Source of the DNA: Desulfococcaceae bacterium
Lineage (GTDB): Bacteria; Desulfobacterota; Desulfobacteria; Desulfobacterales; Desulfococcaceae
Assembly (NCBI GenBank): GCA_046541495.1
Contig: JBKHDE010000003.1
Span: forward strand, 513-64,512
Direction: 5' to 3'
DNA length: 64,000 nucleotides
This document shows, piece after piece, positions 35,715 to 64,000 of this stretch. The position numbers and the translations under genes are program-made. A model generated the notes under the pieces. The model made no database searches. It was not told the DNA's origin and saw nothing but the letters and a program-made list of their open reading frames with translations. Within the stretch, counting starts at the first letter, position 1. Each line of letters starts with the position of its first letter.

Positions 35715-36922
<1,208 letters not shown>

Positions 36923-38030: not shown

Positions 38031-42431
<4,401 letters not shown>

Positions 42432-42503: not shown

Positions 42504-45500
42504 TTACTTGCCCTCTTCCATGAGGGCGACATCCAACCCCAGGCTCTGCAATTCTTTGGTCAAGACTTTAAAGGACTCCGGAATCCCCGGTTCCAGAACA
42601 TTCTGACCCTTGACGATCTTCTCGTACATTCGGGTCCGCCCGGCCATATCGTCGGACTTGACGGTCAAAAATTCCTGAAGGGCGTGGGCTGCCCCGTAGG
42701 CCTCCATGGCCCAGACCTCCATCTCGCCCAGGCGCTGGCCTCCGAACTGGGCCTTTCCGCCCAGAGGCTGCTGAGTCACGAGGGAGTAGGGTCCGATGGA
42801 ACGGGCATGGATCTTGTCGTCCACCAGGTGGTGGAGTTTCAGCATGTACATGGTTCCGACGGTGATCCGTTCTTTAAACGGTTCTCCGGTGCGTCCGTCA
42901 TACAGGGTGGTCTGGGCGGTGGCAGACAGACCGGCCTCGGACAGCAGGGCCTTGATCTCATCCTCTTTGGCGCCGTCAAAGACGGGCGTGGCCATATGAA
43001 CGCCCTCGGCATAGGCGGCGGCGAAATCGAGCAGCCCTTCACCATCCAGGGAATCGATCACCTCTCGGGCTTCGGCGCCTTCCCGGGCCTCCGGCCCCTT
43101 ACCGTCGCTGCCGGCGAAGATTCGTTTCATTTTTTCCCGCAAAGAGGAATGGTCTTCGGCTTCGATCAGGTCCCGAATTTGGTCGCCCAAGCCCTTGGCG
43201 GCACGGCCCAGATGGATTTCAAGGATCTGCCCCACATTCATTCGAGACGGCACGCCGAGCGGATTGAGGACCATATCCACCGGGGTTCCGTCTTCAAAAT
43301 AGGGCATGTCCTCCTGGGGAAGGAGCATGGAGACTACGCCCTTGTTCCCGTGGCGGCCCGCCATCTTGTCTCCCACCGAGAGCTTTCGTTTCATGGCCAC
43401 ATAGACCTTGACCATCTTGATCACCCCGGGCGGCAGATCATCCCCTTTTTCGAACCGGCTGACCCGCTGTTCAAAGTTGGAAATACACCGCTCCCGCTGT
43501 TCGCGGTACATTTCCAGAAGTTCGTGCACCCGTTCGGTGCGGTCCGGGTCTTCCAGAACAATCCCTTCAAAAAGGTTCACCGGTTCGATGGTTTCGAGCA
43601 TCTCCCGGGTGATCGGTTCGTCTTTTGGCAGCAGCACCGTCTTCCCTTTTTTGAGGGGCGCCGGCAGGCTCTGGCCCTTTAGATATTCGGCAAGCTGGTC
43701 CCGAACCACCTCTTCCATGATCGTCAGCTCATCGTCTTTATCCCGTTCAAAGGCCGCGATTTCATCGTCCTCGATGGTCCGGGTCCGGTCGTCTTTGACG
43801 ATTCCTCGGCGGGAGAAAACCTTGGCATCGATAACGGTGCCTTCCACGCCGGGCGGCACCCGCAGCGAGGTATCTTTGACGTCTCCGGCCTTTTCGCCGA
43901 AGATGGCCCGCAGCAATTTTTCTTCGGGAGACAGCTGGGTTTCGCCTTTGGGGGTGACCTTTCCCACCAGAATGTCGCCGGATCGGACCTCGGCCCCCAG
44001 CCGGACGATGCCGCTTTCATCGAGGTCTTTCAAAGCCTCTTCCCCCACATTGGGAATATCCCGGGTGATCTCTTCCTTTCCGAGCTTGGTGTCTCGGGCC
44101 ACCACCTCGAACTCCTCGATGTGGACCGAGGTGTACACCCCGTCGCGGACCAGCCGTTCGCTGACCAGAATGGAATCCTCGAAATTATACCCGCCCCAGG
44201 GCATGAAGGCCACGGTGACGTTCTTGCCCAGGGCCAGTTCCCCGCGCTCGGTGGCCGGCCCGTCGGCGATGATCTGCCCGGCCTTGACCCGCTGACCCTT
44301 TTGCACGATGGGCCGCTGATTGAAACAGGTGTTCTGGTTGGACCGGACGAATTTGGACAGGTTGATAGGGTCCACCAGTTTCTGGGAAGCATCGCCGCTG
44401 AAATCGTACTTGAGCAGAATGCGGGAGGCCTCCACATCCACCACCTCGGCATCCCGCTTGGCCACAACGGCCACGCCCGAATCCCGGGCCACCACGGCTT
44501 CAATGCCGGTGCCCACCAGCGGGGCCCGGCTGATCATCAGCGGCACCGCCTGGCGCTGCATGTTGGAGCCCATCAGGGCCCGGTTGGCGTCGTCGTTTTC
44601 GAGAAACGGAATCAGGGAGGCGGACACGCTCACCAGCTGATCCGGAGAGATGTCCATCAGTTCGATGCGTTCCTGTTCCACCATTTCAAATTCACCGGTC
44701 ACCCGGGAGGTCACCCGCGGATTGACATAGTGCTTGTCCTCATCCATCGGGGCGTTGGCCTGTGCGATGGGGTGTTTGGCTTCCTCAAAGGCGCTCAAAT
44801 ACCGCACATCGTCGGTAACCGTGGCGTCTTTCACCACCCGATAAGGGGTTTCGATAAAACCGTAGTCATTTACACGGGCATAGGTGGACAAAGACACGAT
44901 CAGCCCGATATTGGGACCTTCCGGGGTTTCGATGGGGCAGATCCGGCCGTAGTGAGACGGATGCACATCCCGCACCTCGAAGCCGGCCCGCTCCCGGGTA
45001 AGGCCGCCGGGCCCCAGGGCGCTCAACCGCCGCTTGTGGGTGGTTTCGGATAGCGGGTTGGTCTGATCCATGAACTGAGAGAGCTGGCTGGTTCCGAAAA
45101 ATTCCTTGACCACCGCCGATACCGGCTTGGGGTTGACCAGGTCGTGGGGCATCAGGGCATCCACCTCCTGAAGGCTCATCCGCTCTTTGATGGCCCGCTC
45201 CATTCGAACCAGGCCGATCCGATACTGGTTTTCAAGCAGCTCGCCCACGGCCCGGACCCGTCGATTGCCCAGGTGGTCGATATCGTCCACCACCCCTTGA
45301 GTGTCCCGAAGCTCCACCAGGGTCTTGGTGGTCAGCAGCACATCCTCTTTTCGCAGGGTCCGGACGTTGACCGGGGTGTCCATGCCCAGGCGCAGGTTGA
45401 TCTTCATTCGGCCCACGCCCGAGAGGTCATAATAAGAAGATTTGAAAAACAGATGATCGATAAATTCCTGGGCCACCTCCGGGGTGGCCGGATTGCCGGG

Positions 45501-46637
45501 ACGAAGCCGCCGATAAATTTCGATCAGGGCCTCTTCTTTGGAGTCGACCTTGTCCAGAATCAGGGTCTTGCGGATGGAGTCGCTGCTGCTGACCCAGTCG
45601 ATGAAGAGGATCTCGAATTCGGTGATGCCGGCATCCGTAATTCGGTTGAGAATCTCCTCGTCCACCGGGTCATTGGCCCGGGCGATGATCTCCCCGGTAC
45701 CGGGGTCGGTCACGGTGGAGGCGATGATGGTGTTGAGGATATCCTCCCGCTCGATGGGGATCATCTCCATGCCGGCGTTCTTGATCTGGCGAATGGCCCG
45801 CTGGGTGAACATCCGCCCTTTTTTTACGATCACATCCCCGGATTCGGGATCGACAATATCCTGGGATGCCCGCTGGCCTTTGAGGGATTTGACCTGGAAT
45901 GTCTTAAAATACTCGGCGCCTTGAATAATGATCTTATCGGTGTCGTAGAAATAGGTCAGGAGATCGTCGGTGGTATACCCGAAGGCCTTGAACAGCAAGG
46001 TGACCGGAAATTTTCGCCGCCGATCGATTCGAATGTAGACGATGTCCTTGGGATCGATTTCCATATCGATCCAGGACCCCCGAACCGGAATGATTCGGGA
46101 CGAGTAGATGATCTTTCCGCTGGAATGGGTTTTTCCCTTGTCGTGGTCGAAAAAGACGCCCGAAGACCGGTGGAGCTGGCTGACCACCACCCGCTCGGTG
46201 CCGTTGATGATGAAGGTCCCCTTTTCGGTCATCAGGGGGATGGTGCCGAAATAGATCTCCTGTTCTTTGATGTCGCGGATATTGGATACGCCCGAATCCT
46301 TGTCGATATCATAGACCACCAGCCGGACCGTGATACGGACCGGCAGTTCATAGGTCATCCCTCGGTCGATGCACTCGTCTACGCTGTGCTTGACTTCGCC
46401 GAACCGGTAGGACACGAATTCGAGGGACGCGCTTCCGGTAAAATCCTTAATGGGAAACACCGAATTGAACACGGCCTGAAGGCCGATGTCTTTTCGATCT
46501 TCCGGAGGGATCCCCATCTGCAGAAACCGCTGATAAGACTCCCGTTGCATCCCGATCAGGTCGGGGATTTCGATGATTTTTGGAATTTTGCCGAAGTTTT
46601 TCCGAATACGCTTACCTGTGAAAGGCTTTCCCGACAT
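42504..46637 (-). CDS. rpoB: DNA-directed RNA polymerase subunit beta
   Basis: ATG 46637 preceded by GGAGA: [35 protein letters not shown]..., 1377 aa. Confidence 0.97.
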
Positions 46638-46674
46638 TTTTTCTCCAGATTGACATGTGGATTCTATAACCACG

Positions 46675-46714
46675 AAAATGGGATGAGGGTTTAATCCCCT
46701 TTCCATCCCATTTT
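46675..46714 (-). terminator. rplL-rpoB intergenic attenuator/terminator-like hairpin
   Basis: TGGGATG...CATCCCA stem (46679-46710) with inner GGG/CCC pairs, flanked by AAAA (46675-46678) and TTTT (46711-46714). On the minus-strand RNA the hairpin is followed by UUUU, 38 nt before the rpoB ATG. Confidence 0.5.
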
Positions 46715-50305: not shown

Positions 50306-50381
50306 TGGCAGGCCAGGAGGGACTCGAACCCCCAGCACTCGGATTTGGAGTCCGACGCTCTGCCATTAGAGCTACTGGCCT
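50306..50381 (-). tRNA. trnW: tRNA-Trp (anticodon CCA)
   Basis: AGGCCAG-TA-GCTC..GAGC-G-TCGGA-CTCCAAA-TCCGA-GTGCT-GGGGG-TTCGAGT-CCCTC-CTGGCCT-G-CCA. Cloverleaf folded by hand; CCA is encoded. Confidence 0.95.
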
Positions 50382-50435
50382 GAATTCATCCGTTGTCAGG
50401 CAACCGGTCGGATTCTCTGTTCAGAAAACCGCCTT

Positions 50436-50585
50436 TTATTTGGTCTCCTTGTGAGGCGTATGCTTCTGGCAGAACCTGCAGTATTTCTGAAACTCCAGTT
50501 TATCCGGCGTGGTCCGCTTGTTTTTCGTTGTCGTATAATTTCTTCTTTTGCATTCGGTACATGCAAGGGTAACCTTGACTCTCAC
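50436..50585 (-). CDS. rpmG: 50S ribosomal protein L33 (4-Cys form)
   Basis: Not in the ORF track. GTG 50585: (M)[48 protein letters not shown], stop TAA at 50438-50436. Confidence 0.92.
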
Positions 50586-50602
50586 TGGACAACTCCTTGA
50601 GC

Positions 50603-51810
<1,208 letters not shown>

Positions 51811-51922
51811 CTGCCTTTACAAATTACGAATATATTCAGGATTCATACGCATCCCGTTCACATCATTGATATAGAAATGGGCTTTAACTTCTTAGTGATG
51901 ATCTGAACAGGCGCGCAAAAAA

Positions 51923-51999
51923 TGGAGCCCACGACCGGAATCGAACCGGTGAACCTCTTCCTTACCAAGGAAGCGCTCTACCGACTGAGCTACGTGGGC
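51923..51999 (-). tRNA. trnT: tRNA-Thr (anticodon GGT)
   Basis: GCCCACG-TA-GCTC-AGTCGGTA-GAGC-G-CTTCC-TTGGTAA-GGAAG-(6-nt variable)-ACCGG-TTCGATT-CCGGT-CGTGGGC-T-CCA. Confidence 0.92.
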
Positions 52000-52048
52000 G
52001 TATCCGCGGTATCCCGTCAAATCTTTTTCTTTGTTTTTGACGGCTTAC

Positions 52049-52124
<76 letters not shown>

Positions 52125-52283
52125 CTTTAAACAGCTAACTTTACCACCTTCAAATTGAAAATGCAAGAGGATAATACGTCCCTCTTGCGCAACCGCGCAG
52201 TAAGACGAATGCAGGAAGCCATGTAGTACAATGCGATTCAGCTCAAAAGGCTGAGATCTCCTACAAACAGCTTACGAAAAGAA

Positions 52284-52368
52284 TGGTGGTGGGGGGAGGA
52301 TTCGAACCTCCGAAGGCTTCGCCGACAGATTTACAGTCTGTTCCCTTTGGCCGCTCGGGAACCCCACC
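52284..52368 (-). tRNA. trnY: tRNA-Tyr (anticodon GTA, long variable arm)
   Basis: GGTGGGG-TT-CCCG..GGGA-ACAGA-CTGTAAA-TCTGT-(variable arm CGGCGAAGCCTTC)-GGAGG-TTCGAAT-CCTCC-CCCCACC-A-CCA. Confidence 0.95.
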
Positions 52369-52379
52369 ATCTTATTTTT

Positions 52380-52455
52380 TGGAGCCAACGGAGGGATTCG
52401 AACCCCCGACCCACTGATTACAAATCAGTAGCTCTGCCAGCTGAGCTACGTTGGC
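52380..52455 (-). tRNA. trnT: tRNA-Thr (anticodon TGT)
   Basis: GCCAACG-TA-GCTC-AGCTGGCA-GAGC-T-ACTGA-TTTGTAA-TCAGT-GGGTC-GGGGG-TTCGAAT-CCCTC-CGTTGGC-T-CCA. Confidence 0.95.
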
Positions 52456-54737: not shown

Positions 54738-54769
54738 GGGCGGTCCGCTTAGGCGGACCGCCCTTTTTG
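54738..54769 (+). terminator. intrinsic terminator after the transglycosylase gene
   Basis: GGGCGGTCCGC (54738-54748), loop TTAG, GCGGACCGCCC (54753-54763), then TTTTTGTT. The stem also encodes the last codons and stop of the convergent glycosyltransferase. Confidence 0.7.
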
Positions 54770-56281
54770 TTCGACCACCGCCTTGAGGGTCTCCAGCCAG
54801 TCGCCCACCTGAGTGAAGACCAGAAATTTGGCATAGACCGCCTGCTGGGCGTTGCCCGCCAGGCGCTCCCGATCGGTGCCTCGCCGAAGCAGGGATTCCA
54901 GTGTTTCGGCGACGGCGGTTTTATTCGCCGGGTCCGGATTGACGGCCCCGTTCCGGCCGTCTTCGATCTGCTCCAGAAGTCCGCTGGCGTTGGAAACCAG
55001 CACCGGTTTGCGTTTCCACATCGCCTCGGCGGCGGTGAGGCCGAAGCCTTCCTGAAGCGAGTTTTGAACCACCACCGACGAGACCTGCTGAAGCACATTG
55101 ACCATCAGGGAATTTCTTTTTCGGGAATCCATGGGCAGGGCCAAAATGGCGATGTCGTCCTGGACCCAGTCGGGAAATTCCCGGTAGGCGGCTTTGAGCT
55201 CCTCAACCACCTCCCGGCCCTCGGGGTCATCCTGAATGGACTCAGGATCGGGACCGGCCAGCACCAGTCGGACGATCTCGATCATCTTTTTGTGTCGGCG
55301 GCAATCCCACTCTGAATCCGACCGATCCCGGCTTCCCATCTTCATTTCGGCAAACCCCTGCATCAACGGCAAAAACCCCTTGAGCCGATCCCATCGGGAG
55401 ATCTGGGCCACCGTCATCCGGAACATCAGTCCCATCTCCTCCGGCTGCACCGCCGGGGCGAAGTGTCCGTTCTTTTGCAACCGGTGGGCGGTCTTTTCAA
55501 AGGGGGGTGTGAGAACCGGATGGCGGGGTTTGGCCATACCGGCGTTGCACAGAATCCCCATGATTTTGACCGGTTCCAGTTCCCGGTTTTTGTGGTTGAA
55601 GGGATCGATGGCCGGATGAATGATTCGGTAGTTGTCTTGGAAATAGTCGGGGACGTATTCATCAGAGGTGAACACGGCCGTATCGAAGCCGTCCGCATAG
55701 GGCTGAAGAAATTCCCAGGCGTGGCGGGTCCGTTCGGTATGGTCCGCTATCCCGATATGGGATCGCCAGATGGTGTGGATGTCGGTATCGGATTTGAGCA
55801 TCCGGCCCAGAGCCATGGGTTGGGGATCATGGGCGATGAGGATGTCGCCGGGGTTCAGATGCGTTTTGAGGTCGTCGGCGTTTTGGCGGTTGACCGATTC
55901 ATAGATCTCGCGCTTTTCTTGGTCGAGATCGGTTTTACCGCTGTCGTGGATCAGGTTATGAATGTTTTTGGTGATCCGAAAGAAATCGTCCCGATCGGAT
56001 TGGAGCACGGCCCAGCGGACATCCAGCCCGAGGTCCCGCATCAGCGAAATCACCCGGGGAAGCATTTCAGCCACCCCGCCCCCGTGAACCGAAGAGTTGA
56101 CCATCCAGATGGTCCGGTCCTTGAGATCGGGAACAATCGATTTCGCCTTCTCCTTCAGATCTTTGACCACGCTAGTGAGATAGGCGACCGCTTCGTAATC
56201 GTCAATGTGGATTTTTTCTTCAAGATCGATGATGTCGACCATAAGCCCCCGCTTTGGTTGATGGATTGGGTGTGATGTCAC
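54749..56281 (-). CDS. GT4-family (group 1) glycosyltransferase, trehalose-synthase-like N-terminal region
   Basis: C-terminal GT-B motif NSLQEGFGLTAAEAMWKRKPVLVSNASGLLEQIEDGRNG. About 500 aa. ATG 56242 (MVDIIDLEE) is an alternative start. Confidence 0.75.
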   Translation of the reverse strand: MTSHPIHQPKRGLMVDIIDLEEKIHIDDYEAVAYLTSVVKDLKEKAKSIVPDLKDRTIWMVNSSVHGGGVAEMLPRVISLMRDLGLDVRWAVLQSDRDDFFRITKNIHNLIHDSGKTDLDQEKREIYESVNRQNADDLKTHLNPGDILIAHDPQPMALGRMLKSDTDIHTIWRSHIGIADHTERTRHAWEFLQPYADGFDTAVFTSDEYVPDYFQDNYRIIHPAIDPFNHKNRELEPVKIMGILCNAGMAKPRHPVLTPPFEKTAHRLQKNGHFAPAVQPEEMGLMFRMTVAQISRWDRLKGFLPLMQGFAEMKMGSRDRSDSEWDCRRHKKMIEIVRLVLAGPDPESIQDDPEGREVVEELKAAYREFPDWVQDDIAILALPMDSRKRNSLMVNVLQQVSSVVVQNSLQEGFGLTAAEAMWKRKPVLVSNASGLLEQIEDGRNGAVNPDPANKTAVAETLESLLRRGTDRERLAGNAQQAVYAKFLVFTQVGDWLETLKAVVEQKGRSA

Positions 56282-56484: not shown

Positions 56485-56560
56485 GCCCCCGTAGCTCAGT
56501 GGATAGAGCAATGGATTCCTAATCCATGTGCCGCAAGTTCGATTCTTGCCGGGGGCACCA
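56485..56560 (+). tRNA. trnR: tRNA-Arg (anticodon CCT)
   Basis: GCCCCCG-TA-GCTC-AGTGGATA-GAGC-A-ATGGA-TTCCTAA-TCCAT-GTGCC-GCAAG-TTCGATT-CTTGC-CGGGGGC-A-CCA. Confidence 0.95.
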
Positions 56561-56604
56561 ATGAACTCATTGGGTTGCGATACCCGCTTACAATCCATTT
56601 TCTA

Positions 56605-57366
56605 TTATGATTTTCCTTTTCCATGAAGCATCACCAGATCTTCATCCAGGCTGTGCCGCAGAATATCCAGACGAGGCGACAGCGAAGCCAGATGTTCGCC
56701 TGAGATACGGGTCAGCCGGAATGGAAACATGCTGGGGCTGTCCAGGAGATCATTGACAGCGGCAGCTTCGTTTTCCCTGGTGTGAAGAGAAGTTTCCACC
56801 ATCCAGGCAATGAGTCCGGGTTCTTCAATGAAAGTGGGTTTCCCGCCGGCATAAACGCCTTTATCGCCGGTTTCGCTCAGAACGCCCCAGTCAATGAATG
56901 AACGAAGTACACGCCGAGCAGCCCGCGAGGCTGTTTGGCGTTCCCCGTATTCTTCTTTAATCCGACGCTGCACCTGCGCCGCTGCGGCGTTTCCCTGAAG
57001 CCGCAACAGCCTGCCGGTGTTCGCGGCGACGGCAGCCCAGAAAGGGTATGCGGCCTGAACCATCCCCCAATGAACGGCAATTCGGTATTGGTGCGGAAGT
57101 TTTTGGAGAATTGCCAGCCCTTCATCTCGCAGCTTCTCCAGATGACGGGGGACAGTGAGCCAGGTCTTCAACAGGATGGTAATGACCTTTTCCCTGTTCC
57201 CTCTGACGGCGTTTCCGTCGACAGACACCTTGTCTTGCAGCAAATCCTGAAGTGATTCGTTGATGGCGGCCTTGTCGTTCCCGGCCAGGATCAGGTTGGC
57301 GGTCTTCTCAAACCATTCGAGTCTGATGCGCTGACTGAACCCGATCTGTGCCTTTCGCCCGCTCAT
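56605..57366 (-). CDS. hypothetical protein, helical with winged-helix-like C-terminal part (last gene of the island operon)
   Basis: 253-aa ORF. SD-like AAGGCGG 5 nt before ATG 57366. RAARRVLRSFIDWGVLSETGDKGVYAGG reads like a wHTH. No family recognised. Confidence 0.7.
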   Translation of the reverse strand: MSGRKAQIGFSQRIRLEWFEKTANLILAGNDKAAINESLQDLLQDKVSVDGNAVRGNREKVITILLKTWLTVPRHLEKLRDEGLAILQKLPHQYRIAVHWGMVQAAYPFWAAVAANTGRLLRLQGNAAAAQVQRRIKEEYGERQTASRAARRVLRSFIDWGVLSETGDKGVYAGGKPTFIEEPGLIAWMVETSLHTRENEAAAVNDLLDSPSMFPFRLTRISGEHLASLSPRLDILRHSLDEDLVMLHGKGKS

Positions 57367-57378
57367 CGGTCCCGCCTT

Positions 57379-58245
57379 TCAATCTGAACAAAAGGGACGA
57401 TGAGCTCTTCCAGAGAAGCGCCGCCGTGCCCCTTCCAGAAAAAGGTTGTCCATGTAGACCCGGACGTCGTCATGATCGAACGGCAGATCCGCAGGGCCGG
57501 GGATTTCAAAGCCAAAGGATTGGTTTCCATCCAGAAGGGAATGGGTTTCAAGTTTCACCTTCCGCTTCAGGAAAAACGGCCAGCGCTCCTGAAGAAACGC
57601 GAAAAAGGCTTCCCGATCCGGAATAATCGTTTCAAGGGGCCAGTCCTCAAAACCACCCTGCTGGCGCAGCACCTGAATCATGCGCTCATCCAGCAGCGCC
57701 GGAATGCGTTGTCTCCGGTAATGACGGCGCAGCAGCGCCCGCAGCAGATCGGACGGACTTCGAATAAGTTCCGGCGCGATTTCAAAAACATGGCGCAGAA
57801 TGAATTCCTTGGTGGCGTTATCGCCCAGCACGCCGGGGGCGTGGCGTGTCTGTGCCTCAAAAAGCGCATCGAGATCGCCGCCGTTCAAGGCGGTTACAAT
57901 GGGATAACTCAGGTTGGGAAATATTTCCCCCAGATTGAATGAGAGTTTCCGGCCGGCCTGGAGCAGATCGTAGGGCAGACGACCGAGGTCGCCGGCGGCG
58001 GAGCGCAGCACGACCACCAGGTCTGTCGGCTCACCCCGATCCCAACGGGAGCGGAACTTGGATTCGTAGGCGTACCGAAAGGCGACATGATCCTCATACG
58101 GAATCAGTTCGAAACCACGCTCGCGTATGCCTGCAAGCACGCCTTCTTCCAGGAGCAGGCCGTCCGGATCGGCGACCAGGGTCAGCCGGGCGACATCGGG
58201 GGTGAACTCCCGGAGAATCTGATCGCGCCAGTTACGCATGGGCAC
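57379..58245 (-). CDS. hypothetical protein (island operon)
   Basis: 288-aa ORF overlapping the SNF2 stop by 14 nt (8 nt if the ATG at 58239 is used). Motifs LVADPDGLLLEEG, GFELIPYEDHVAFRYAYES. No family recognised. Confidence 0.7.
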   Translation of the reverse strand: MPMRNWRDQILREFTPDVARLTLVADPDGLLLEEGVLAGIRERGFELIPYEDHVAFRYAYESKFRSRWDRGEPTDLVVVLRSAAGDLGRLPYDLLQAGRKLSFNLGEIFPNLSYPIVTALNGGDLDALFEAQTRHAPGVLGDNATKEFILRHVFEIAPELIRSPSDLLRALLRRHYRRQRIPALLDERMIQVLRQQGGFEDWPLETIIPDREAFFAFLQERWPFFLKRKVKLETHSLLDGNQSFGFEIPGPADLPFDHDDVRVYMDNLFLEGARRRFSGRAHRPFCSD

Positions 58246-61021
58246 CCCCGTCCACCCGAAGAACGAGAAGCGGCACCATGTCCGGGTAGACCTGAGCCTT
58301 GCGGTCGAGTTCCTGGTTCCATGCGCATTCCTCCTCTCGGAGCCGGTTCAGCCGATAATCACGGACCTGGGGCAGACCGATGCGTTCGATGATTTTGCGT
58401 CGGGCGGTGAAGGCATACGCCCCTTTTTCCCTCTCGCGCGTCAGGCGCAAACGGTGCTCCTGAACCAGTTCTTCGTAAATGGTCCGACCCTGCGCTTCAG
58501 CGGTCTGAAAAAGCCGTTCAAAGGCATCTCCGGCATCGTGAAAATCGAGATATTCCCGGACACGAGGCGCGACACTCAGGAGCCGGTCCCACAGATATCG
58601 CGCGGTGGGGGTAAATACCTTTCCGCTGTCGGCAAGAAACAGCGGCATGATCCGGTGGCGGTTCCAGTCTACTGTGGCGATGCCGATCCGCCAGAGAGAC
58701 CACAGCCCCGTGATCTCCTCGGCCACGCCTGGAATCGTCACGACCGAGATCGGTTGTCCCGGCGCAAATCGCGGCAGCCTCATGGCCAGACCCCGAATCC
58801 GGGAGTCTTCCAAAGCCAGGTGCCGGGCGGTGGGTGTCCGCTCGGCCTCCTTGCCGCTGAAAACCACCCGGTTGAGTGTTTCGCCATCCGGCCAGGTCAG
58901 GTGCCAGGTTCGCCGGTTTCGCTCGGCCTTGCCGCCGTGCGCCCGAAGGTAACTCACCGTCATCCGCTCGACCCAATGGGGCAAAGGGTGGGCCATGAGG
59001 CGCTGGGCTTCGGTGGGTTCCAGGTCCTCGGTGCCTCCGAGTACGGCAGTGCTCTCCTGAGTATCCCGGACCTGCGCCTGCAAACGGGTGATGACTTTGC
59101 CAACGGAGGCATCGATTTCATCCGGATGGACCATCGCATCCACATACAGATCGTCAAAGATTTGTCCTGCCTGGGCGGAATCGAGAACGTCCCCGGTCTT
59201 GTCGATACCGAACTCCTCGAAAATGACGGCCAGTTTCTCTTCAAGCACCTCCTGAACCCGGTGCTCCACCGAATCTTCGAAAACAAAGTTCAGGGCGCGC
59301 ACCACATGGGTCTGGCCGATGCGATCCACCCGGCCGATGCGCTGTTCGAGCCGCATGGGGTTCCAGGGGATGTCGTAGTTGATCACCACATGGCAGAACT
59401 GGAGATTCAACCCTTCACCGCCGGCGTCGGTTGAGATAAGAATGCGGGCTTCTTCGGTGAATGCTTCCTGGACCCTCTTGCGCTCATCCATGCTCATGGA
59501 GCCGTTCAGACAGACCACCTGGAATCCGCGTTCGGTCAGGAACTGTTGAAGCATCTGCTGGGTGGGAACGAACTCGGTGAATACCAGGGCCTTCAGTTCC
59601 GGATCCCCCTCTTCCGCCTGCAGCTTATACAGCCAGTTCAGCAGCGCTTCGGCTTTGGCGTCCGCTCCAAACTGCATACACCGGTCAGCGGCTTCGAGGA
59701 GCAGCTTCACCTCGGCCCGTTCGTTTTTGAGCGCCTTCAGCCGTGTGGTCAGAAGCGTTTCGATCTGCTCCTGTCCATCGAGGTCGGCCCACTCCTCCTC
59801 GGAATAGATCGGAAACAGAGACAACTGCTCCGCCGGCGCTTCGAGCGCCTCCAGCCGGCGGGCGAGCGTGGTGCGGATGGCGGTGGTGCTCGACACCACC
59901 AGACGCTGCATCAGGATCATCAGAAACCCGATATAGCTGCGCTTCTCGCGCATGGCCTGGTTGTATCCCTCCCGCGCGTATTCTGTGACCGCTTCGTACA
60001 GAAGCTGCTGGTCTCGGTGGGCCTCCCCCCAGGAGACAGGCGCAAGCTCGGTTTTTCGGGGTTTGAAAAGCGGTTTTCCCTCGGCCGTAATGGCTCGGCG
60101 TTTTTCAGTTCGGATGACATAGGGCTCTACCCGGTCCCGGGTCACGCTGCCCACGTCGGGAAACGCCTGGGCGTCGAGCAGAGATAACAGCCGGTGGAAG
60201 GCGTCGGTTTTTCCCTGATGCGGGGTTGCCGAAAGCATGAGAAAATAGGGTGCGGCTTCGCAGAGCCCCTGACCCAGTTTGAACCGGGCCACTTGGTCGG
60301 TGCTGCCCCCGAGCCGGTGGGCCTCGTCCACGATCACCAGGTCCCATCCCGCGGACACCAGGTCCTCGAATCGATCCTGATTGTATTCGGCCACCTGCTT
60401 TGCCGACCAGCCGCGCCGGCTCTCCAGCGGCTTGACCGAATCCATCGGGCAGACCACCTGCGGATGGCTCTGCCAGATGTTGTCTTCCTTGGCGATGCGC
60501 CGGTAGGCTGAAAAATCGCTGGGGATGAGCAGTCTGAACTCTTCGTTGAAATGGGTGCGCATTTCGGCCACCCACTGGGTCACCAGGCCTTTCGGGGCAA
60601 TGACCAGCACCCGCTTGACCAGCCCGCGGAGCTTCAGCTCCCGAAAAATAAGCCCGGCTTCGATGGTTTTTCCGAGTCCGACCTCGTCAGCCAGGAGGTA
60701 CCGGATCCGGTCCCCGGCAATGGCGCGGGACAGGGCTTTGATTTGGTGCGGAAGCGGAATGACCGAGGATTCGATGGGTGCAAGCAGGACATCCCGGGTC
60801 AGGGCGTCGGCTATGCGTGCGGCGGAGGCGATATAGATGATACTGTCAGCGGTTCCCCGCCCGGCATCCGCCAAGGAGGCGAGTTTAGAAGCAGGAACGC
60901 GGACTACCGAATCTCGGCCGGGCAGCCATACCCGGCAGGTTGTCTCGCCCCACAGCGTCTGGGTTTCGATGACCTGGCAGGCACTGCTATGAGCAATGCT
61001 GTATTGCCAGAAATCACTCAT
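58232..61021 (-). CDS. SNF2-family ATPase/helicase with RapA(HepA)-like architecture
   Basis: 929 aa. Motif I LLADEVGLGKTIEAG, motif II LVIVDEAHRLGG, LSATPHQGK, motif VI EQRIGRVDRIGQTH. Also an N-terminal beta-rich region and a ~330-aa C-terminal extension, as in RapA. Confidence 0.9.
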   Translation of the reverse strand: MSDFWQYSIAHSSACQVIETQTLWGETTCRVWLPGRDSVVRVPASKLASLADAGRGTADSIIYIASAARIADALTRDVLLAPIESSVIPLPHQIKALSRAIAGDRIRYLLADEVGLGKTIEAGLIFRELKLRGLVKRVLVIAPKGLVTQWVAEMRTHFNEEFRLLIPSDFSAYRRIAKEDNIWQSHPQVVCPMDSVKPLESRRGWSAKQVAEYNQDRFEDLVSAGWDLVIVDEAHRLGGSTDQVARFKLGQGLCEAAPYFLMLSATPHQGKTDAFHRLLSLLDAQAFPDVGSVTRDRVEPYVIRTEKRRAITAEGKPLFKPRKTELAPVSWGEAHRDQQLLYEAVTEYAREGYNQAMREKRSYIGFLMILMQRLVVSSTTAIRTTLARRLEALEAPAEQLSLFPIYSEEEWADLDGQEQIETLLTTRLKALKNERAEVKLLLEAADRCMQFGADAKAEALLNWLYKLQAEEGDPELKALVFTEFVPTQQMLQQFLTERGFQVVCLNGSMSMDERKRVQEAFTEEARILISTDAGGEGLNLQFCHVVINYDIPWNPMRLEQRIGRVDRIGQTHVVRALNFVFEDSVEHRVQEVLEEKLAVIFEEFGIDKTGDVLDSAQAGQIFDDLYVDAMVHPDEIDASVGKVITRLQAQVRDTQESTAVLGGTEDLEPTEAQRLMAHPLPHWVERMTVSYLRAHGGKAERNRRTWHLTWPDGETLNRVVFSGKEAERTPTARHLALEDSRIRGLAMRLPRFAPGQPISVVTIPGVAEEITGLWSLWRIGIATVDWNRHRIMPLFLADSGKVFTPTARYLWDRLLSVAPRVREYLDFHDAGDAFERLFQTAEAQGRTIYEELVQEHRLRLTREREKGAYAFTARRKIIERIGLPQVRDYRLNRLREEECAWNQELDRKAQVYPDMVPLLVLRVDGGAHA

Positions 61022-62171
61022 CTACTTTTCGCCAAATTGTAACTTTGAAGAGATTCCCGTCACGATCGTTCTCAAAGAAAATATGTGGATAGGCCTTCAA
61101 TGCACGAATAATCCCGCTGCCCAAGCCCCGGTAGGGAAGAATTTTTGTTGCAAAAGATGCCAAGACCGGATTTCGAATATTCGAATTCCCACTTTTAATA
61201 TTTTCGATCGTCAGATTATTGGGAAGATGCCCGGGACTGATGATCTCGACTCGGTTGTCAAAGACAAAAATTCTTACGGTCGCGGAAACAAAATAATCAC
61301 GATGAATAAGAGCATTGGCAATGAGTTCTTCCAAAACGATTGACGGTATCTCAGGCTGACCCGGCGCATTGACATCCTGATCGCCCTGAACGTGATGAAT
61401 GTTTCCACGCACAAAACTCATTCCCTGATGAAAAACATCCCCCAATTTCCCGGCAATGTCACGGCTGTCCAGATAGTCGGTCTCATGTATTTCATTCCCC
61501 GGAAAAGCAATTGCTTTAATAATGAAAACAGGGAGTTTGAAAGAAGGATTTTTTGCAAACAACAGTGCTCCACTGATATTCAATACACGATCCTTCATCA
61601 GATTCATATTGTGTAGAATATCCGGAAGCGGCAACTCTTGTTGATCGAGCGGTTCTCCGAAGTTTTTTTCGAAGAAAACCTTGAAATAGTCAACGTCAAG
61701 ATCAGATACCGTCATCCCCGGAACGGGAATCTCATCGCCGTGAATCAAGCCGGCGCTCTGATAAAGTCGCTGGATTTCCTCCCTGGAAGTGGCCTTTCTC
61801 TTATCCGATCCACTCTTAACCCATATCACCCCGTTTTTGTCCATGTAGGGTTTGCTCATGCCGTCCGGGATAACGACGCGCATCACCAGTCCGTCGGGCG
61901 TCGCAATGTTTTCTGTTATCGGATTGATGGGTGGCCGCACCTGCTGGGATCCGGCGTTTGAAACCAGTTGATTTAACCGACCCATATCATCCCTCCCCAG
62001 GCCGGAAAAAGTACCATCGTTACTTACGCCGATATAAATGGAGCCGCCACCCGAATTACTGAACGCAACCATTTCCTGCCCCAAGGATGTTTCATTGGTA
62101 ACGTCGGCTTTGAACTGGTGCTTGCTGTCCTCATCCCGGTTAACTATTTCAAGGAGTTCAGCGGTTTCCAT
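61014..62171 (-). CDS. AlbA_2 (Schlafen-type) domain plus HATPase_c_4-like domain protein
   Basis: N-terminal EDSKHQFKADV...MVAFSNSGGGSIYIGVSNDGTFSG (AlbA_2 pattern). C-terminal LEELIANALIHRDY...VEIISPGHLP...IRNPVLA...GLGSGI (HATPase_c_4 pattern). Overlaps both neighbours. Confidence 0.85.
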   Translation of the reverse strand: METAELLEIVNRDEDSKHQFKADVTNETSLGQEMVAFSNSGGGSIYIGVSNDGTFSGLGRDDMGRLNQLVSNAGSQQVRPPINPITENIATPDGLVMRVVIPDGMSKPYMDKNGVIWVKSGSDKRKATSREEIQRLYQSAGLIHGDEIPVPGMTVSDLDVDYFKVFFEKNFGEPLDQQELPLPDILHNMNLMKDRVLNISGALLFAKNPSFKLPVFIIKAIAFPGNEIHETDYLDSRDIAGKLGDVFHQGMSFVRGNIHHVQGDQDVNAPGQPEIPSIVLEELIANALIHRDYFVSATVRIFVFDNRVEIISPGHLPNNLTIENIKSGNSNIRNPVLASFATKILPYRGLGSGIIRALKAYPHIFFENDRDGNLFKVTIWRKVDE

Positions 62172-64000
62172 ATCTCATACCTCATTCTGCGTTGTCGGAA
62201 TGCCTCTTCACCACCTTCCATAATATTGACAATTTTCTGTTGAAGCTTCGGGCAATCGATGCTGCCGCTAATGACCTCCACCTTTCCATTGGAATAGGAA
62301 CAGGCGATGACCTGTTCGGCATCACCAAGGACCGGAAAATTTGCATTATGAGTGGCGAAAACAAATTGAGTTTTGGGCTTCAACTCCCGGAGCAGCTTGA
62401 TCACATCTTCGTAAATGGTCTGGTTGTCCAAATCATCTTCCGGTTGATCAATGAGAAAGACATTGTTTTCCTGTTGGCTCAGAACAAATAAAATCAACGC
62501 CGATGCACGCTGGCCCAAAGAATGGTGCTTAAGTTCCTTATCCCGATACTTTATGATGAAGCGGTTGGGTACCTGCCACGTAAGCAGTGATTCGAGATTA
62601 TCGGTAAAGTACTGTTTGAACACCTGTGCCGTAGTTCCGAGTTCTTGCTCAGCTCTTTCCCAATCCTTATATATTCCCCCGAAATCATTAAAATTTCCGG
62701 AAAGATTCTGAAATGTGGCTTCACGGATACGGCTGCCACGAAAAATGTCCTTCATAAATGCCACAAAAGCCGTCTTGTCCCCTTTGTACTCAGCTTTAAT
62801 CGTAAGAGAAGAATGGCTCTGATTAACCTTTTCCAATTCGGATTTTATCACCCGGAACTCATCGTGCCAGAGGCTATTAAGTACCGTTATCTCTTTTAAA
62901 AGCTCATCCTTCAAACTGGCACGGGTTGCTCCTTCTTTTTCCAAAGCAATAAGCATTTGCGCAGCCTGATCCACCGTTTTTCGGAGCTTGCGGAATTCAT
63001 CCGGACGAATGGCCTGTGCTCCGGATTCTCTCAATCGCTCAGTAAGCTTTCTTTCAATAACGGCGAATTCTTCTTTCAGTCCGTCTTTGAGTCGGGAAAA
63101 AGTTTGCGCTTTCTGCTGAAGTTCGGTGAAAACCAGATTTCCTGTTGTATATGCTTCTCTGATGCGATCGAAAGAGGCTATCAGCTTGTCGTAGCATGCA
63201 AAGAACTCTTCAAAGAACACTTTGTTTTGTCTTGATGTATAAACCCTTTGATTTCTAAGATCATCTTCATGTTGATTGATGAAGGATTCCAATTCATCAA
63301 GATAGGTCCTTACAAAAGCCGTCACTTGGGTACATTTTCTGGAATCGGCATCAAAATCTATCTGCTTTTGGAGCTTTTCCTCCACCCCGTGATCTTTGTA
63401 GAATTTCAGTCTGAACTCAGCATCCTGCTTTTTTCGTTCATATTCTTTTTTCTTCTCTGCTGAGTTTTCAAGTTTTTTTAACCGCCTGACGATTTCAACG
63501 ACCTTTTGACGTTGCTCGGCGATGCGAGAACGAATTCCTCCCACTTTTTCACCCACCAACTTTTCCACCAGATCTTTTTCAAAGCCTTCTCCGGTTGAAG
63601 AAAGATCTTTTTGGCCAAAGTAGATCGGCTTATGTAAAATGGTTTCCCGAATGGATATACCGGGCTGAAGTACACCATTGACATATACATCGGGGCGTTC
63701 CCGGCTGATGCGACGTATTTCATACTGCTGGCCTCTCTGATCGAGGGCATGGATCGTTATTTTGCCCCCGCTCCCCAGAACGTGGTCCACCAGGTGAATT
63801 TTATAATCGGTATCGAGAGCTTTTTCGCCGAACGGTATATCGAGGGCATAGCGAATCGCTTCCAGAATGGAAGATTTTCCACTGCCGCGAATTCCGATCA
63901 GCGTATTCAGCTCCGCAGAAAGATGGATGGACTCCCCATCCAATATTCCACCCTCAAATGAAACGCTTTGAATGTGGGAGTGCCGGTACTCATGCGGCTG
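62144..64000 (-). CDS. SMC/ABC-type ATPase with long central coiled-coil (5' end outside window)
   Basis: Frame stays open to base 64000 (...QPHEYRHSHIQSVSFEGGILDGESIHL). Walker A GIRGSGKSS, long charged helical middle, signature-like HSLGQRAS, Walker B FLIDQPEDDLD, H-loop ATHNANFPV. Confidence 0.85.
   Translation of the reverse strand, partial: QPHEYRHSHIQSVSFEGGILDGESIHLSAELNTLIGIRGSGKSSILEAIRYALDIPFGEKALDTDYKIHLVDHVLGSGGKITIHALDQRGQQYEIRRISRERPDVYVNGVLQPGISIRETILHKPIYFGQKDLSSTGEGFEKDLVEKLVGEKVGGIRSRIAEQRQKVVEIVRRLKKLENSAEKKKEYERKKQDAEFRLKFYKDHGVEEKLQKQIDFDADSRKCTQVTAFVRTYLDELESFINQHEDDLRNQRVYTSRQNKVFFEEFFACYDKLIASFDRIREAYTTGNLVFTELQQKAQTFSRLKDGLKEEFAVIERKLTERLRESGAQAIRPDEFRKLRKTVDQAAQMLIALEKEGATRASLKDELLKEITVLNSLWHDEFRVIKSELEKVNQSHSSLTIKAEYKGDKTAFVAFMKDIFRGSRIREATFQNLSGNFNDFGGIYKDWERAEQELGTTAQVFKQYFTDNLESLLTWQVPNRFIIKYRDKELKHHSLGQRASALILFVLSQQENNVFLIDQPEDDLDNQTIYEDVIKLLRELKPKTQFVFATHNANFPVLGDAEQVIACSYSNGKVEVISGSIDCPKLQQKIVNIMEGGEEAFRQRRMRYEIWKPLNSLK

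What the first reader, a model, noticed from the sequence alone, without database searches (positions are those of the whole stretch)
56485..64000. tRNA-Arg-flanked, overlap-coupled five-gene operon (SMC-like ATPase, Schlafen/AlbA_2-HATPase, RapA-like SNF2, two orphans): candidate uncharacterised defence system
Directly 3' of tRNA-Arg(CCT), a classical island insertion point, lie five minus-strand ORFs. They are chained by overlaps (62144-62171, 61014-61021, 58232-58245) or a 12-nt gap (57367-57378). This is one translationally coupled operon that continues beyond the window edge. It combines: (a) an ABC/SMC ATPase with a long coiled coil; (b) an AlbA_2/Schlafen-type nucleic-acid-binding domain fused to a HATPase_c_4-like domain; (c) a 929-aa SNF2 motor with RapA-like layout; (d, e) two proteins (288 and 253 aa) I cannot place in any family. 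An ATPase, a helicase and a sensor-like module in a tightly coupled operon beside a tRNA is the usual signature of anti-phage or anti-plasmid systems. This gene set does not match any named system as I recall their compositions (BREX, DISARM, Zorya, Druantia, Lamassu, Wadjet, Gabija, Septu, Hachiman). No methyltransferase, nuclease, PLD or protease effector is visible in the window.
Basis: partly seen in the sequence, partly recalled or inferred. Interest (0 to 1): 0.85.

Follow-up and report, generated by a model that had tools for sequence, protein, structure and literature searches.

The report
Decayed BREX-3 tail plus Ppl-like/Schlafen cassette
The five genes are not a new defence system: they are the recently broken tail end of a known anti-phage system (BREX type 3), with a foreign two-gene nuclease-ATPase/Schlafen cassette inserted into it that is probably the only part still working.

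Summary
The interpretation as a new five-gene system fails. The two "orphans" are BREX type 3 proteins. The 253-aa ORF is full-length BrxA. The 288-aa ORF is the first ~269 residues of PglZ, left by a 1.13-kb out-of-frame deletion (junction at 57431) that removes the phosphatase domain. The "RapA-like SNF2" is BrxHII. brxHII-pglZ-brxA is the canonical BREX-3 order, found with full-length PglZ in 70 of 70 relatives.

The other two genes are a low-GC cassette (45-46% against 56% for the host). One is a TrlF-family, Ppl-like PHP-nuclease/ABC ATPase, 882 aa and cut by the window edge. It overlaps a Schlafen(AlbA_2)-GHKL gene. This pair stays together in 49 of 54 metagenomic loci. It sits in three different BREX-3 slots, in other restriction-like loci, and inside a type I R-M operon on IncC/IncA plasmids.

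Near-identical contigs show that upstream pglXI has lost its methylase domain and brxC its ATPase part. Lineages 97-99% identical carry different, independent disruptions, but the pair is always intact. So this is a recently decayed BREX-3 locus with a guest module. The mildly novel point is the uncharacterised pair, whose Schlafen motif reads E-x4-Q-x-K.

The parts
56485..56560 (+). tRNA-Arg(CCT). Its 3' end faces the defence locus.
   Evidence: ARAGORN and Rfam tRNA at 72.2 bits. No second copy of its 3' end was found in the window or in any fetched locus. None of 20 BREX-3 relatives has a tRNA at this place; L090 has a tRNA-Arg(ACG) about 260 nt past brxA.
56605..57366 (-). brxA (BREX type 3), 253 aa, intact.
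   Evidence: PADLOC BrxA PDLC02444, E 2e-101, model positions 1-250 of 251. It follows pglZ in all relatives. Homology to the 97%-identical lineage L151 stops about 20 nt before its stop codon.
57379..58245 (-). pglZ remnant. The 288-aa ORF holds PglZ residues 1 to ~269 plus 15 out-of-frame residues. The phosphatase (PglZ) domain is deleted.
   Evidence: PADLOC PglZ PDLC02558 positions 1-269 of 666, and NCBIfam BREX_PglZ_3 positions 1-251 of 642. No Pfam PglZ domain is present, whereas intact L009 PglZ has it at residues 404-575.
57367..57431 (-). Deletion junction at 57431/57432, followed by the surviving last ~22 codons of pglZ. These encode GHGGASLEELIVPFVQIERRDR* but are now out of frame.
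   Evidence: blastn against intact loci: window 58240->57431 equals L007 13227-14036, then the match jumps to L007 15166. That is 1129 bp missing, not a multiple of 3, with GG microhomology at the junction. This explains the premature stop and the 12-nt 'gap'.
58232..61021 (-). brxHII, the SNF2-family helicase of BREX type 3, 929 aa, intact. Motif I GLGKT is at 60665-60679, DEAH at 60317-60328, and motif VI at 59312-59344.
   Evidence: PADLOC PDLC02500 at 1556 bits, model positions 6-931 of 933. NCBIfam RapA scores 210 bits, below its 576 cut-off, and DrmD scores 366 bits, below 610. The best PDB relative is RapA at 6e-41. 574 genomic relatives were confirmed and the best 80 kept, 64-89% identical.
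61014..62171 (-). Schlafen(AlbA_2)-GHKL(HATPase_c_4) gene, 385 aa, partner of trlF. The Schlafen motif reads E14-x4-Q19-x-K21 (62109-62132). The GHKL N-box is at 61302-61331.
   Evidence: Pfam SLFN_AlbA_2 at 71.9 bits and HATPase_c_4 at 53 bits. GC is 46.5%. Q19 is present in 44 of 45 family members. A homologue lies directly downstream of trlF in 49 of 54 loci.
62144..64000 (-). trlF, a Ppl-like PHP-nuclease/ABC ATPase. The window holds residues 265-882 of 882; the PHP domain lies beyond base 64000. Walker A is at 63872-63895, the signature motif at 62504-62518, Walker B at 62426-62449, and the H-loop at 62339-62356.
   Evidence: NCBIfam TrlF_fam_ATP scores 397 bits for the window part and 585 bits for the full length, against a cut-off of 350. 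A Pfam PHP hit covers residues 19-101 of the full protein. The frame is open to 64000. 617 of 618 residues are identical to L004. GC is 44.7%.
60900..61100 (.). Compositional boundary between the host-like BREX tail and the foreign cassette.
   Evidence: 500-nt GC values are 0.61-0.63 up to 60999 and 0.41-0.49 from 61000 on. The lowest 3-kb GC anywhere in 1-56484 is 0.516.

Best explanation
The chain is a mosaic of two known kinds of defence DNA.

(1) Bases 56605-61021 are the 3' tail of a BREX type 3 locus, brxHII-pglZ-brxA, lying against tRNA-Arg(CCT). pglZ has suffered a 1.13-kb out-of-frame internal deletion that removes its phosphatase/nuclease domain. In contigs 99.3-99.9% identical to the window, the upstream genes are also stumps. 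pglXI keeps only its C-terminal ~300 residues and has no methylase domain. brxC keeps only its last ~225 residues. BREX-3 is therefore most likely inactive here, and it was inactivated recently.

(2) Bases 61014-64000 and beyond are a compositionally foreign, translationally coupled gene pair in the variable cargo slot between pglXI and brxHII. The pair is a TrlF-family, Ppl-like protein (N-terminal PHP nuclease plus an ABC ATPase with a coiled coil) and a Schlafen-like/GHKL protein. It is a self-contained mobile module that repeatedly lodges inside methylation-based immunity operons: BREX-3, BREX-related loci, and type I R-M on IncC/IncA plasmids.

Inferred mechanism. By analogy with E. coli Ppl, TrlF is the effector, a 3'-5' DNA exonuclease gated by nucleotide binding to its ATPase. 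The Schlafen-GHKL partner has Gln in place of the second catalytic acid, so it probably acts as a nucleic-acid-binding sensor or regulator rather than as an RNase. The pair would then serve as a back-up that fires when the host restriction system is bypassed or inhibited.

Shown here: gene identities, the deletion, the mosaic composition, the linkage of the pair, and independent decay in sister lineages. Inferred: every biochemical step. The confidence of 0.85 applies to the identity and decay reading; the biochemical mechanism alone would rate about 0.4.
For: Identity of the genes:
- PADLOC and NCBIfam give full-length matches for BrxHII and BrxA, and a match to PglZ positions 1-269 only.
- TrlF scores above its curated cut-off. 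AlbA_2 and HATPase_c_4 are both present.

Canonical context:
- Of 70 evaluable BREX-3 relatives, 67 have full-length PglZ in one piece and 3 have it full-length but split. None is truncated at about residue 270.
- 58 of 64 relatives have more than 500 nt of variable cargo between pglXI and brxHII.

The deletion:
- The junction is precise at 57431, 1129 bp are missing, and the pglZ tail is retained out of frame.
- The PglZ domain lies at residues 404-575 in intact L009.

Upstream stumps:
- In L002-L005 the PglXI fragment covers model positions 618-918 of 919, and in L002-L004 the BrxC fragment covers 1007-1231 of 1231.
- The 294-aa PglXI stump is annotated on the same 66,435-bp Desulfococcaceae contig as the window's genes.

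Mosaic composition:
- The cassette is 44.7-46.5% GC. The host is 56.3% and the BREX tail 55.5-60.9%.

The pair as a unit:
- 49 of 54 loci carry the Schlafen-GHKL gene directly downstream of trlF and overlapping it.
- It occupies three BREX-3 slots: brxC|pglXI (L105), pglXI|brxHII (L087, window) and brxHII|pglZ (L089).
- It also sits beside a PLD-SNF2 + Eco57I-type methylase (L112), beside DUF1156 (L149), and beside housekeeping genes (L129, L148).
- On pNDM-1_Dok01 (IncC) and on an IncA plasmid it lies between hsdR and hsdS.

Independent decay:
- L151 and L152 are 97% identical to the window. They keep both cassette genes intact, but brxHII has two frameshifts and a different deletion fuses BrxHII residue 759 to PglZ residue 314.
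- L002 cuts BrxHII at about residue 325.

Literature:
- BREX-3 composition, the RapA-like BrxHII architecture, and Schlafen-HisK auxiliaries in at least 1017 taxa (PMC12839542).
- The Ppl mechanism (PMC12904381).
Against: - The state of pglXI and brxC is read from near-identical contigs and from an NCBI protein listing, not from the window itself.
- dN/dS between the window and L151 is low for every gene: TrlF 0.08, Slfn 0.18, BrxHII 0.13-0.14, BrxA 0.08. BrxHII and BrxA were therefore under purifying selection until recently, and a residual or repurposed role for them cannot be excluded.
- No experiment on any TrlF-family protein or on this pair was found in the held library. The mechanism is borrowed from Ppl, whose NCBIfam model this protein does not pass (157 bits against a cut-off of 1000).
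- The E-to-Q reading of the Schlafen motif rests on sequence alignment only.
- An intact BREX or methylase elsewhere in the genome cannot be ruled out.
Confidence: 0.85

Rival explanations
1. One reading: all five genes form one uncharacterised defence system made of an ATPase, a sensor, a helicase and two novel small proteins.
For: The ORFs overlap or nearly abut on one strand. No strong terminator signal lies between them, with terminator-like sites at or below the shuffled expectation.
Against: - Three of the genes are BREX-3 components in canonical order.
- One 'small protein' is a frameshifted gene fragment.
- GC breaks sharply at 61000.
- The trlF-slfn pair occurs without any BREX gene in view, and in other operons.
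- BREX-3 occurs without the pair in most relatives.
Confidence: 0.03
2. A reduced but working BREX-3 derivative: BrxHII, BrxA and the PglZ N-terminal module still cooperate with the TrlF-Schlafen pair, which supplies the missing nuclease.
For: - BrxHII and BrxA are intact, and their dN/dS against L151 is low.
- SNF2 motifs are intact.
- The retained PglZ part matches the N-terminal inactive-helicase-like plus HTH region described for type 1 PglZ in PMC12839542.
- The slfn stop overlaps the brxHII start by 8 nt.
Against: - The pglZ deletion is out of frame, and its conserved tail is left untranslated.
- Sister lineages break brxHII and pglZ in different ways, which looks like loss rather than a selected architecture.
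- No distant genome shows this reduced set.
- No methylase remains to mark self DNA.
Confidence: 0.1
3. The SNF2 gene and its two small neighbours are housekeeping genes (RapA-type RNA polymerase recycling).
For: RapA is the closest solved structure by sequence. BrxHII shares RapA's domain layout (PMC12839542). The locus lies about 10 kb from rpoBC and about 5 kb from tuf.
Against: - NCBIfam RapA scores 210 bits against a 576-bit cut-off, while the BrxHII model scores 1556 bits.
- The neighbours are PglZ and BrxA.
- Relatives are scattered over many phyla, always inside BREX-3 loci.
Confidence: 0.01
4. The truncations and the mosaic are errors of metagenome assembly or binning.
For: The source is a MAG contig.
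Against: The pglZ deletion junction is present without gaps in an independent Logan assembly (L001). The trlF-slfn-brxHII junctions are present in four further assemblies.
Confidence: 0.02

Closest known systems
BREX type 3 (brxF-brxC-pglXI-brxHII-pglZ-brxA; Goldfarb et al. 2015 from my own knowledge; Rakesh & Krishnan 2026, PMC12839542)
   Same: brxHII, pglZ and brxA are present in the canonical order. BrxHII and BrxA give full-length family matches. A variable cargo slot lies between pglXI and brxHII, as in 58 of 64 relatives.
   Different: PglZ lacks its catalytic domain. In near-identical contigs PglXI lacks its methylase domain and BrxC its ATPase part. BrxF was not seen. This is a remnant, not a working member.
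Ppl, the single-gene anti-phage PHP exonuclease/ATPase of E. coli (mechanism summarised in PMC12904381), and NCBIfam family TrlF (NF045780)
   Same: It has an N-terminal PHP domain with conserved His motifs, an ABC-type ATPase with a coiled-coil insert, and intact Walker A, Walker B, signature and H-loop motifs. It passes the TrlF cut-off.
   Different: It fails the Ppl model (157 bits against 1000). Unlike single-gene Ppl, this subfamily is nearly always coupled to a Schlafen-GHKL gene, in 49 of 54 loci. No experimental work on TrlF was found.
Prokaryotic Schlafen-histidine-kinase-like proteins (pSlfn; bioRxiv 10.1101/2025.07.24.666596) and Schlafen-HisK-wHTH auxiliaries of BREX loci (PMC12839542)
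   Same: AlbA_2/Schlafen domain followed by a GHKL (HATPase_c_4) domain, located inside a BREX locus.
   Different: The catalytic E-x4-(E/D)-x-K motif reads E-x4-Q-x-K in 44 of 45 members of this TrlF-linked family. Other Schlafen-HK genes in BREX-3 loci keep the canonical motif. There is no C-terminal wHTH: 385 aa against about 420-510 aa.
PrrC and RloC, anticodon nucleases embedded in type I R-M loci (from my own knowledge; not tested here)
   Same: This is an analogy of working logic only. An ABC-ATPase-linked nuclease module is encoded inside a restriction-modification operon. The trlF-slfn pair sits between hsdR and hsdS on IncC/IncA plasmids and inside BREX-3.
   Different: There is no sequence relationship. 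The effector domains here are a PHP nuclease and a Schlafen-like domain, and there are two genes instead of one. Activation by loss of restriction activity is not shown.
RapA (RNA polymerase-associated SNF2 ATPase)
   Same: It is the best solved-structure relative of the 929-aa protein (6e-41), and the domain layout is parallel (PMC12839542).
   Different: It scores below RapA's family cut-off, and the genomic context is BREX.

Membership tests
BREX type 3 | BrxHII SNF2 helicase | tested here: met
   PADLOC PDLC02500 at 1556 bits, full length. SNF2 motifs are intact.
BREX type 3 | PglZ with its phosphatase (PglZ/NPP) domain | tested here: not met
   Only model positions 1-269 of 666 are present. 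There is no Pfam PF08665 hit. 1129 bp are deleted out of frame.
BREX type 3 | BrxA homologue downstream of pglZ | tested here: met
   PADLOC BrxA positions 1-250 of 251. The order matches the relatives.
BREX type 3 | PglXI (BrxXI) adenine methyltransferase | tested here: not met
   It is not in the window. In contigs 99.3-99.9% identical, only the C-terminal 294-305 aa remain (model positions 618-918 of 919). The N6_N4_Mtase hit lies at residues 126-178 in intact L009. For the window's own genome this is an inference.
BREX type 3 | BrxC (DUF6079) ATPase and BrxF | tested here: not met
   Only BrxC positions 1007-1231 of 1231 survive in L002-L004. BrxF was not seen there. In L002 a type III R-M lies upstream instead. 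This region is outside the window.
TrlF family (NCBIfam NF045780) | Score above the curated cut-off, with full-length PHP + ABC ATPase architecture | tested here: met
   397 bits for the window part and 585 bits for the full 882 aa, against a cut-off of 350, covering model positions 1-943 of 944. PHP and ATPase motifs are conserved. The PHP domain lies beyond base 64000.
Ppl (NCBIfam NF042955) | Score above the curated cut-off of 1000 bits | tested here: not met
   157.5 bits. It is related to Ppl but is not Ppl.
Ppl-like mechanism | NTP-gated 3'-5' ssDNA exonuclease activity | not testable with these tools
   This needs biochemistry. It is known only for E. coli Ppl (PMC12904381).
Prokaryotic Schlafen nucleases (pSlfn) | AlbA_2/Schlafen domain | tested here: met
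   PF04326 at 71.9 bits against a cut-off of 25.3.
Prokaryotic Schlafen nucleases (pSlfn) | Catalytic E-x4-(E/D)-x-K motif | tested here: not met
   The motif is E14-x4-Q19-x-K21, with Q in 44 of 45 family members and in the IncC and IncA plasmid copies.
RapA | NCBIfam PRK04914 score above the 576-bit cut-off | tested here: not met
   209.9 bits.
DISARM (DrmD) | NCBIfam DISARM_DrmD score above the 610-bit cut-off, with DrmA/B partners | tested here: not met
   366 bits. No DrmA or DrmB is nearby.
Lamassu / SMC-type systems | LmuB SMC ATPase with an LmuA effector | tested here: not met
   There is only a weak LmuB hit (1.4e-10). The TrlF match is far stronger, and no LmuA was found.

The most novel reading that the evidence does not exclude
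The trlF-slfn pair is an experimentally uncharacterised two-gene defence module. It specialises in riding inside methylation-based immunity operons: BREX-3 in three different slots, BREX-related loci, and type I R-M between hsdR and hsdS on IncC/IncA resistance plasmids. In this reading a Schlafen domain that has lost a catalytic acid (E-x4-Q-x-K) serves as the sensor or regulator of a Ppl-like PHP exonuclease. The pair acts as a guard that fires when the host restriction system is disabled. It also outlives that system, as seen here, where BREX-3 decays in three independent ways around an always-intact pair.
Probability: 0.35. Interest if true: 0.55.

Novelty: new member of a known kind. Interest (0 to 1): 0.3.

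Why it matters
As proposed, a new five-gene system, the finding does not hold, so it should not be carried forward as a novel defence system. Two smaller points remain useful.

First, the locus is a clean natural example of a BREX system being dismantled. Lineages 97-99% identical carry different deletions in brxHII and pglZ, while a guest module is kept intact. This bears on how defence islands turn over.

Second, the TrlF/Schlafen-GHKL pair is tightly linked (49 of 54 loci). Relatives of TrlF covering at least 80% of the protein occur on 232 plasmid records, and the pair was confirmed by annotation on the listed Klebsiella and E. coli IncC/IncA plasmids. I found no functional study of it. 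A conserved Gln in the Schlafen catalytic motif makes a specific, testable prediction: the domain is a sensor, not an RNase.

Tried and rejected
- **Exact look-up of the 929-aa protein:** it is not on record. The look-up worked with the 385-aa and 253-aa proteins instead.
- **Literature on 'TrlF':** only spectroscopy papers and unrelated hits came back. No paper combines Schlafen + PHP + ABC ATPase, or Schlafen + PHP domain + phage. A search on IncC, Tn7-like and type I R-M gave nothing relevant.
- **Island ends:** no direct repeat of the tRNA-Arg 3' end was found in the window or in any fetched locus. No integrase is in view. tRNA adjacency is not shared by 20 relatives. The island ends therefore remain undefined.
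- **Promoter and terminator scan:** counts are at shuffle level, so it is uninformative about operon structure.
- **dN/dS between the window and L151:** I hoped it would separate live genes from dead ones. All genes score 0.08-0.18, so it only says the decay is recent.
- **PDB sequence searches:** there is no relative for TrlF, and only a weak GHKL-region hit (3lmm) for the Schlafen-GHKL protein.
- **Rfam:** only tRNAs were found.
- **Phage genomes:** TrlF relatives are rare there (7 records, at most 40% identity), so the cassette is not typically phage-borne.
- **Considered and rejected as identities:** RapA housekeeping, DISARM DrmD, Lamassu LmuB, Gabija and Septu ATPases. All score below their cut-offs or give only P-loop-level hits.
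- **Structure prediction:** not run. Family assignments were already decisive, and only single-sequence input was allowed.

Full report
**Observation**

tRNA-Arg(cct) is at 56485-56560 on the + strand. Five minus-strand ORFs follow it: 56605-57366 (253 aa), 57379-58245 (288 aa), 58232-61021 (929 aa), 61014-62171 (385 aa), and one starting at 62144 that runs off the window. The listed TTG start at 63943 is not real. The frame is open to base 64000. The stated overlaps and the 12-nt gap are correct.

**What the genes are**

Defence-specific and NCBI profiles place all five.
- The 929-aa protein matches the PADLOC BrxHI|BrxHII model from end to end (1556 bits).
- The 253-aa 'orphan' is full-length BrxA (model positions 1-250 of 251).
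- The 288-aa 'orphan' matches PglZ, but only positions 1-269 of 666. It also matches NCBIfam BREX-3 PglZ at positions 1-251 of 642, with 334 bits against a cut-off of 250.
- The ATPase passes the curated cut-off of NCBIfam's TrlF family: 397 bits for the part in the window, against 350. It is related to the anti-phage protein Ppl, and matches model positions 301-943 of 944.

RapA (210 bits against 576) and DISARM DrmD (366 against 610) fail their cut-offs. RapA is still the nearest solved structure. That fits the published finding that BrxHII parallels RapA in domain layout (PMC12839542).

**Beyond the window edge**

Exact-protein look-ups found contigs from independent assemblies that are 99.3-99.9% identical to the window over 2-4 kb. 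They show four things.
- The ATPase gene is 882 aa with an N-terminal PHP domain. It scores 585 bits on TrlF over the full model. The window holds residues 265-882, with 617 of 618 identical.
- Directly upstream lies a 294-305-aa ORF that is only the C-terminal tail of the BREX-3 methyltransferase PglXI (model positions 618-918 of 919).
- Further up lie a broken Schlafen/Fic-like_C gene and a 227-aa ORF that is only the last part of BrxC (positions 1007-1231 of 1231).
- NCBI's own annotation of the source, a 66,435-bp contig of a Desulfococcaceae MAG, already names the 286-aa product 'BREX-3 system phosphatase PglZ' and the ATPase 'TrlF family AAA-like ATPase'. It lists the 294-aa PglXI stump on the same contig.

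**Comparison with intact loci**

A genome-wide scan with BrxHII confirmed 574 relatives. The 80 best are 64-89% identical and come from many phyla. Mapping reference proteins onto them gives one recurring order: brxC, pglXI, a variable gap, brxHII, pglZ, brxA.
- Of 70 loci with enough downstream sequence, 67 have full-length PglZ in one piece and 3 have it full-length but split. None has the short form.
- 58 of 64 loci have more than 500 nt of variable cargo between pglXI and brxHII, ranging from 27 to 8811 nt.
- That cargo includes a GajA-like ATPase + UvrD-like helicase pair (Gabija-like, L008), other ABC ATPases (L009), TrlF-family proteins (L010, L028, L068, L075) and Schlafen-HK genes (L012, L028).

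**The pglZ lesion**

DNA alignment to intact loci shows homology running from 58240 to 57431. It then jumps 1129 bp, resuming at the last ~22 codons of pglZ and continuing into brxA. The junction shares a GG. The missing length is not a multiple of three. The conserved tail GHGGASLEELIVPFVQIERRDR* is still present but is read in the wrong frame, so the ORF stops early at 57379. In intact L009 PglZ the Pfam PglZ domain lies at residues 404-575, so the catalytic domain is gone.

**Mosaic origin**

GC is 56.3% over bases 1-56484, and the lowest 3-kb value there is 51.6%. The BREX tail is 55.5-60.9%. The Schlafen-GHKL gene is 46.5% and trlF is 44.7%. The step falls exactly at their junction with brxHII. 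The five ORFs are therefore not one co-evolved unit.

**The pair as a unit**

A metagenome scan with an alignment of four TrlF proteins returned 64 loci at 43-78% identity.
- In 49 of 54 loci with enough sequence, a homologue of the 385-aa gene lies directly downstream and overlaps trlF.
- The pair occupies three different positions in otherwise intact BREX-3 loci: between brxC and pglXI (L105, L054), between pglXI and brxHII (L087, as in the window), and between brxHII and pglZ (L089).
- It also lies next to a PLD-SNF2 helicase + Eco57I-type methylase (L112), next to DUF1156 (L149), and among housekeeping genes (L129, L148).
- 232 plasmid records carry a relative covering at least 80% of TrlF. 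On pNDM-1_Dok01 (IncC) and on an IncA plasmid the pair sits between hsdR and hsdS of a type I R-M operon. It is annotated there as 'TrlF family AAA-like ATPase' and 'RNA-binding domain-containing protein'.
- It is rare in phage genomes.

**A family-specific feature**

Published prokaryotic Schlafen nucleases have a conserved E-x4-(E/D)-x-K active-site motif (bioRxiv 10.1101/2025.07.24.666596). In the TrlF-linked family the motif is E14-x4-Q19-x-K21. Gln is present in 44 of 45 non-redundant members, in the window, and in the IncC and IncA plasmid copies. Other Schlafen-HK genes in BREX-3 loci keep the second Glu. In TrlF the PHP His motifs, Walker A, Walker B, signature motif and H-loop are all conserved.

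**Decay in sister lineages**

- L151 and L152 are 97% identical to the window. They keep trlF and its partner intact. Their brxHII has two frameshifts, and a different deletion fuses BrxHII residue 759 to PglZ residue 314.
- In L152 the upstream neighbours are cas4-cas1-cas2, an apparent CRISPR array and a broken Schlafen-HK, not pglXI or brxC.
- In L151 the DNA beyond brxA encodes glycerate-kinase-like and PPDK-like proteins instead of the tRNA. Homology to the window ends about 20 nt before the brxA stop.
- L002 is 99.3% identical. It truncates BrxHII at about residue 325 and continues into a DUF3987 gene.

These amount to three independent disruptions of the BREX tail around an always-intact pair. 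dN/dS between the window and L151 is low for every gene (0.08-0.18). BrxHII and BrxA were therefore under constraint until recently, and the decay is young.

**Interpretation**

I conclude with high confidence that the finding is a recently inactivated BREX type 3 locus carrying a guest two-gene module. It is not a new five-gene system.

How the module works is inference. E. coli Ppl is a 3'-5' ssDNA exonuclease that is inhibited by bound NTPs and activated on phage-generated 3'-OH ends (PMC12904381). By analogy, TrlF is the likely effector. The Gln-substituted Schlafen-GHKL partner is more likely a nucleic-acid-binding sensor or regulator than an RNase.

The pair repeatedly lodges inside methylation-based restriction operons. 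This suggests a back-up role like the one proposed for other auxiliary effectors of BREX (PMC12839542). It is also reminiscent of PrrC in type I R-M loci; that comparison is from my own knowledge and was not tested. A residual function for BrxHII and BrxA cannot be excluded.

**Context and limits**

The window is chromosomal. Two tuf copies, rpoB and rpoC lie 5-20 kb from the locus. tRNA adjacency fits an island, but no integrase or att repeat is in view. The state of the upstream genes is inferred from near-identical contigs. No expression or phenotype data exist.

Noticed in passing
window 62109-62132 (Schlafen motif); also L153 9613-10776: The Schlafen active-site motif reads E-x4-Q-x-K instead of E-x4-(E/D)-x-K. 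Q is present in 44 of 45 members of the TrlF-linked family and in the IncC and IncA plasmid copies. Other Schlafen-HK genes in BREX-3 loci keep the Glu.
   Followed up: partly
L153 (NC_018994.1 pNDM-1_Dok01, 160137-176758) and L154 (NZ_CP055012.1): On IncC/IncA conjugative resistance plasmids the trlF + Schlafen-GHKL pair lies inside a type I R-M operon: hsdR, trlF, slfn, hsdS, AAA ATPase, hsdM. On pNDM-1_Dok01 this operon is next to Tn7-like transposition genes. 232 plasmid records carry a relative covering at least 80% of TrlF.
   Followed up: partly
L151 4622-7952 and L152 13772-16193: Lineages 97% identical to the window carry a different lesion. brxHII has two frameshifts, and a deletion fuses BrxHII residue 759 to PglZ residue 314, giving a called 621-aa 'Helicase_C + PglZ' product.
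   Followed up: yes
L002 11031-12653: In a contig 99.3% identical to the window, BrxHII is cut after about residue 325 and followed by a DUF3987 gene. A type III R-M (Mod fragment + Res) lies upstream of the BrxC stump.
   Followed up: partly
L152 1-9700: Upstream of the trlF-slfn pair in this lineage lie cas4-cas1-cas2, a run of small ORFs that looks like a CRISPR array, DUF1016, and a broken Schlafen + HATPase_c_4 gene. No pglXI or brxC remnant is present.
   Followed up: no
L004 955-2075 (about 4 kb beyond the window edge): A second, degraded Schlafen-type gene lies between the BrxC and PglXI stumps. It consists of an AlbA_2 ORF lacking the N-terminal catalytic motif, overlapped by an ORF that ends in a Fic-like_C domain.
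   Followed up: partly
window 56614-56625 versus L151 about 8690-8700: Homology between the window and L151 ends about 20 nt before the brxA stop. The last 6 codons of brxA and the 44 nt up to the tRNA are specific to this genome. The locus therefore sits in a different chromosomal context in the two lineages.
   Followed up: partly
L008 6416-10008; L009 7016-9981 and 12769-13473: The pglXI-brxHII slot holds other cargo in close relatives. L008 has a GajA-like ATPase + UvrD/PcrA-like helicase pair (Gabija-like). L009 has an AAA_15/DUF3696 ATPase plus an unplaced 378-aa protein, and also a CBS-domain gene between brxHII and pglZ.
   Followed up: partly
L062 1485-7042; L080 12874-17362: L062 has two tandem PglXI genes. 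L080 has about 4.5 kb inserted between brxHII and pglZ.
   Followed up: no
window 35715-36908 and 50603-51796 (-); 38031-46706 (-); tRNAs 50306-52455: Two EF-Tu genes give identical profile scores. They flank rpoC and rpoB, with the tRNA-Thr/Tyr/Gly/Thr and tRNA-Trp cluster nearby. This core chromosomal region lies 5-20 kb from the defence locus.
   Followed up: partly
window 54749-56281 (-): A TreT-like GT1 glycosyltransferase lies next to the tRNA. It has a secondary hit to Pfam 'GT4-conflict' (38.7 bits), probably a generic glycosyltransferase similarity.
   Followed up: no
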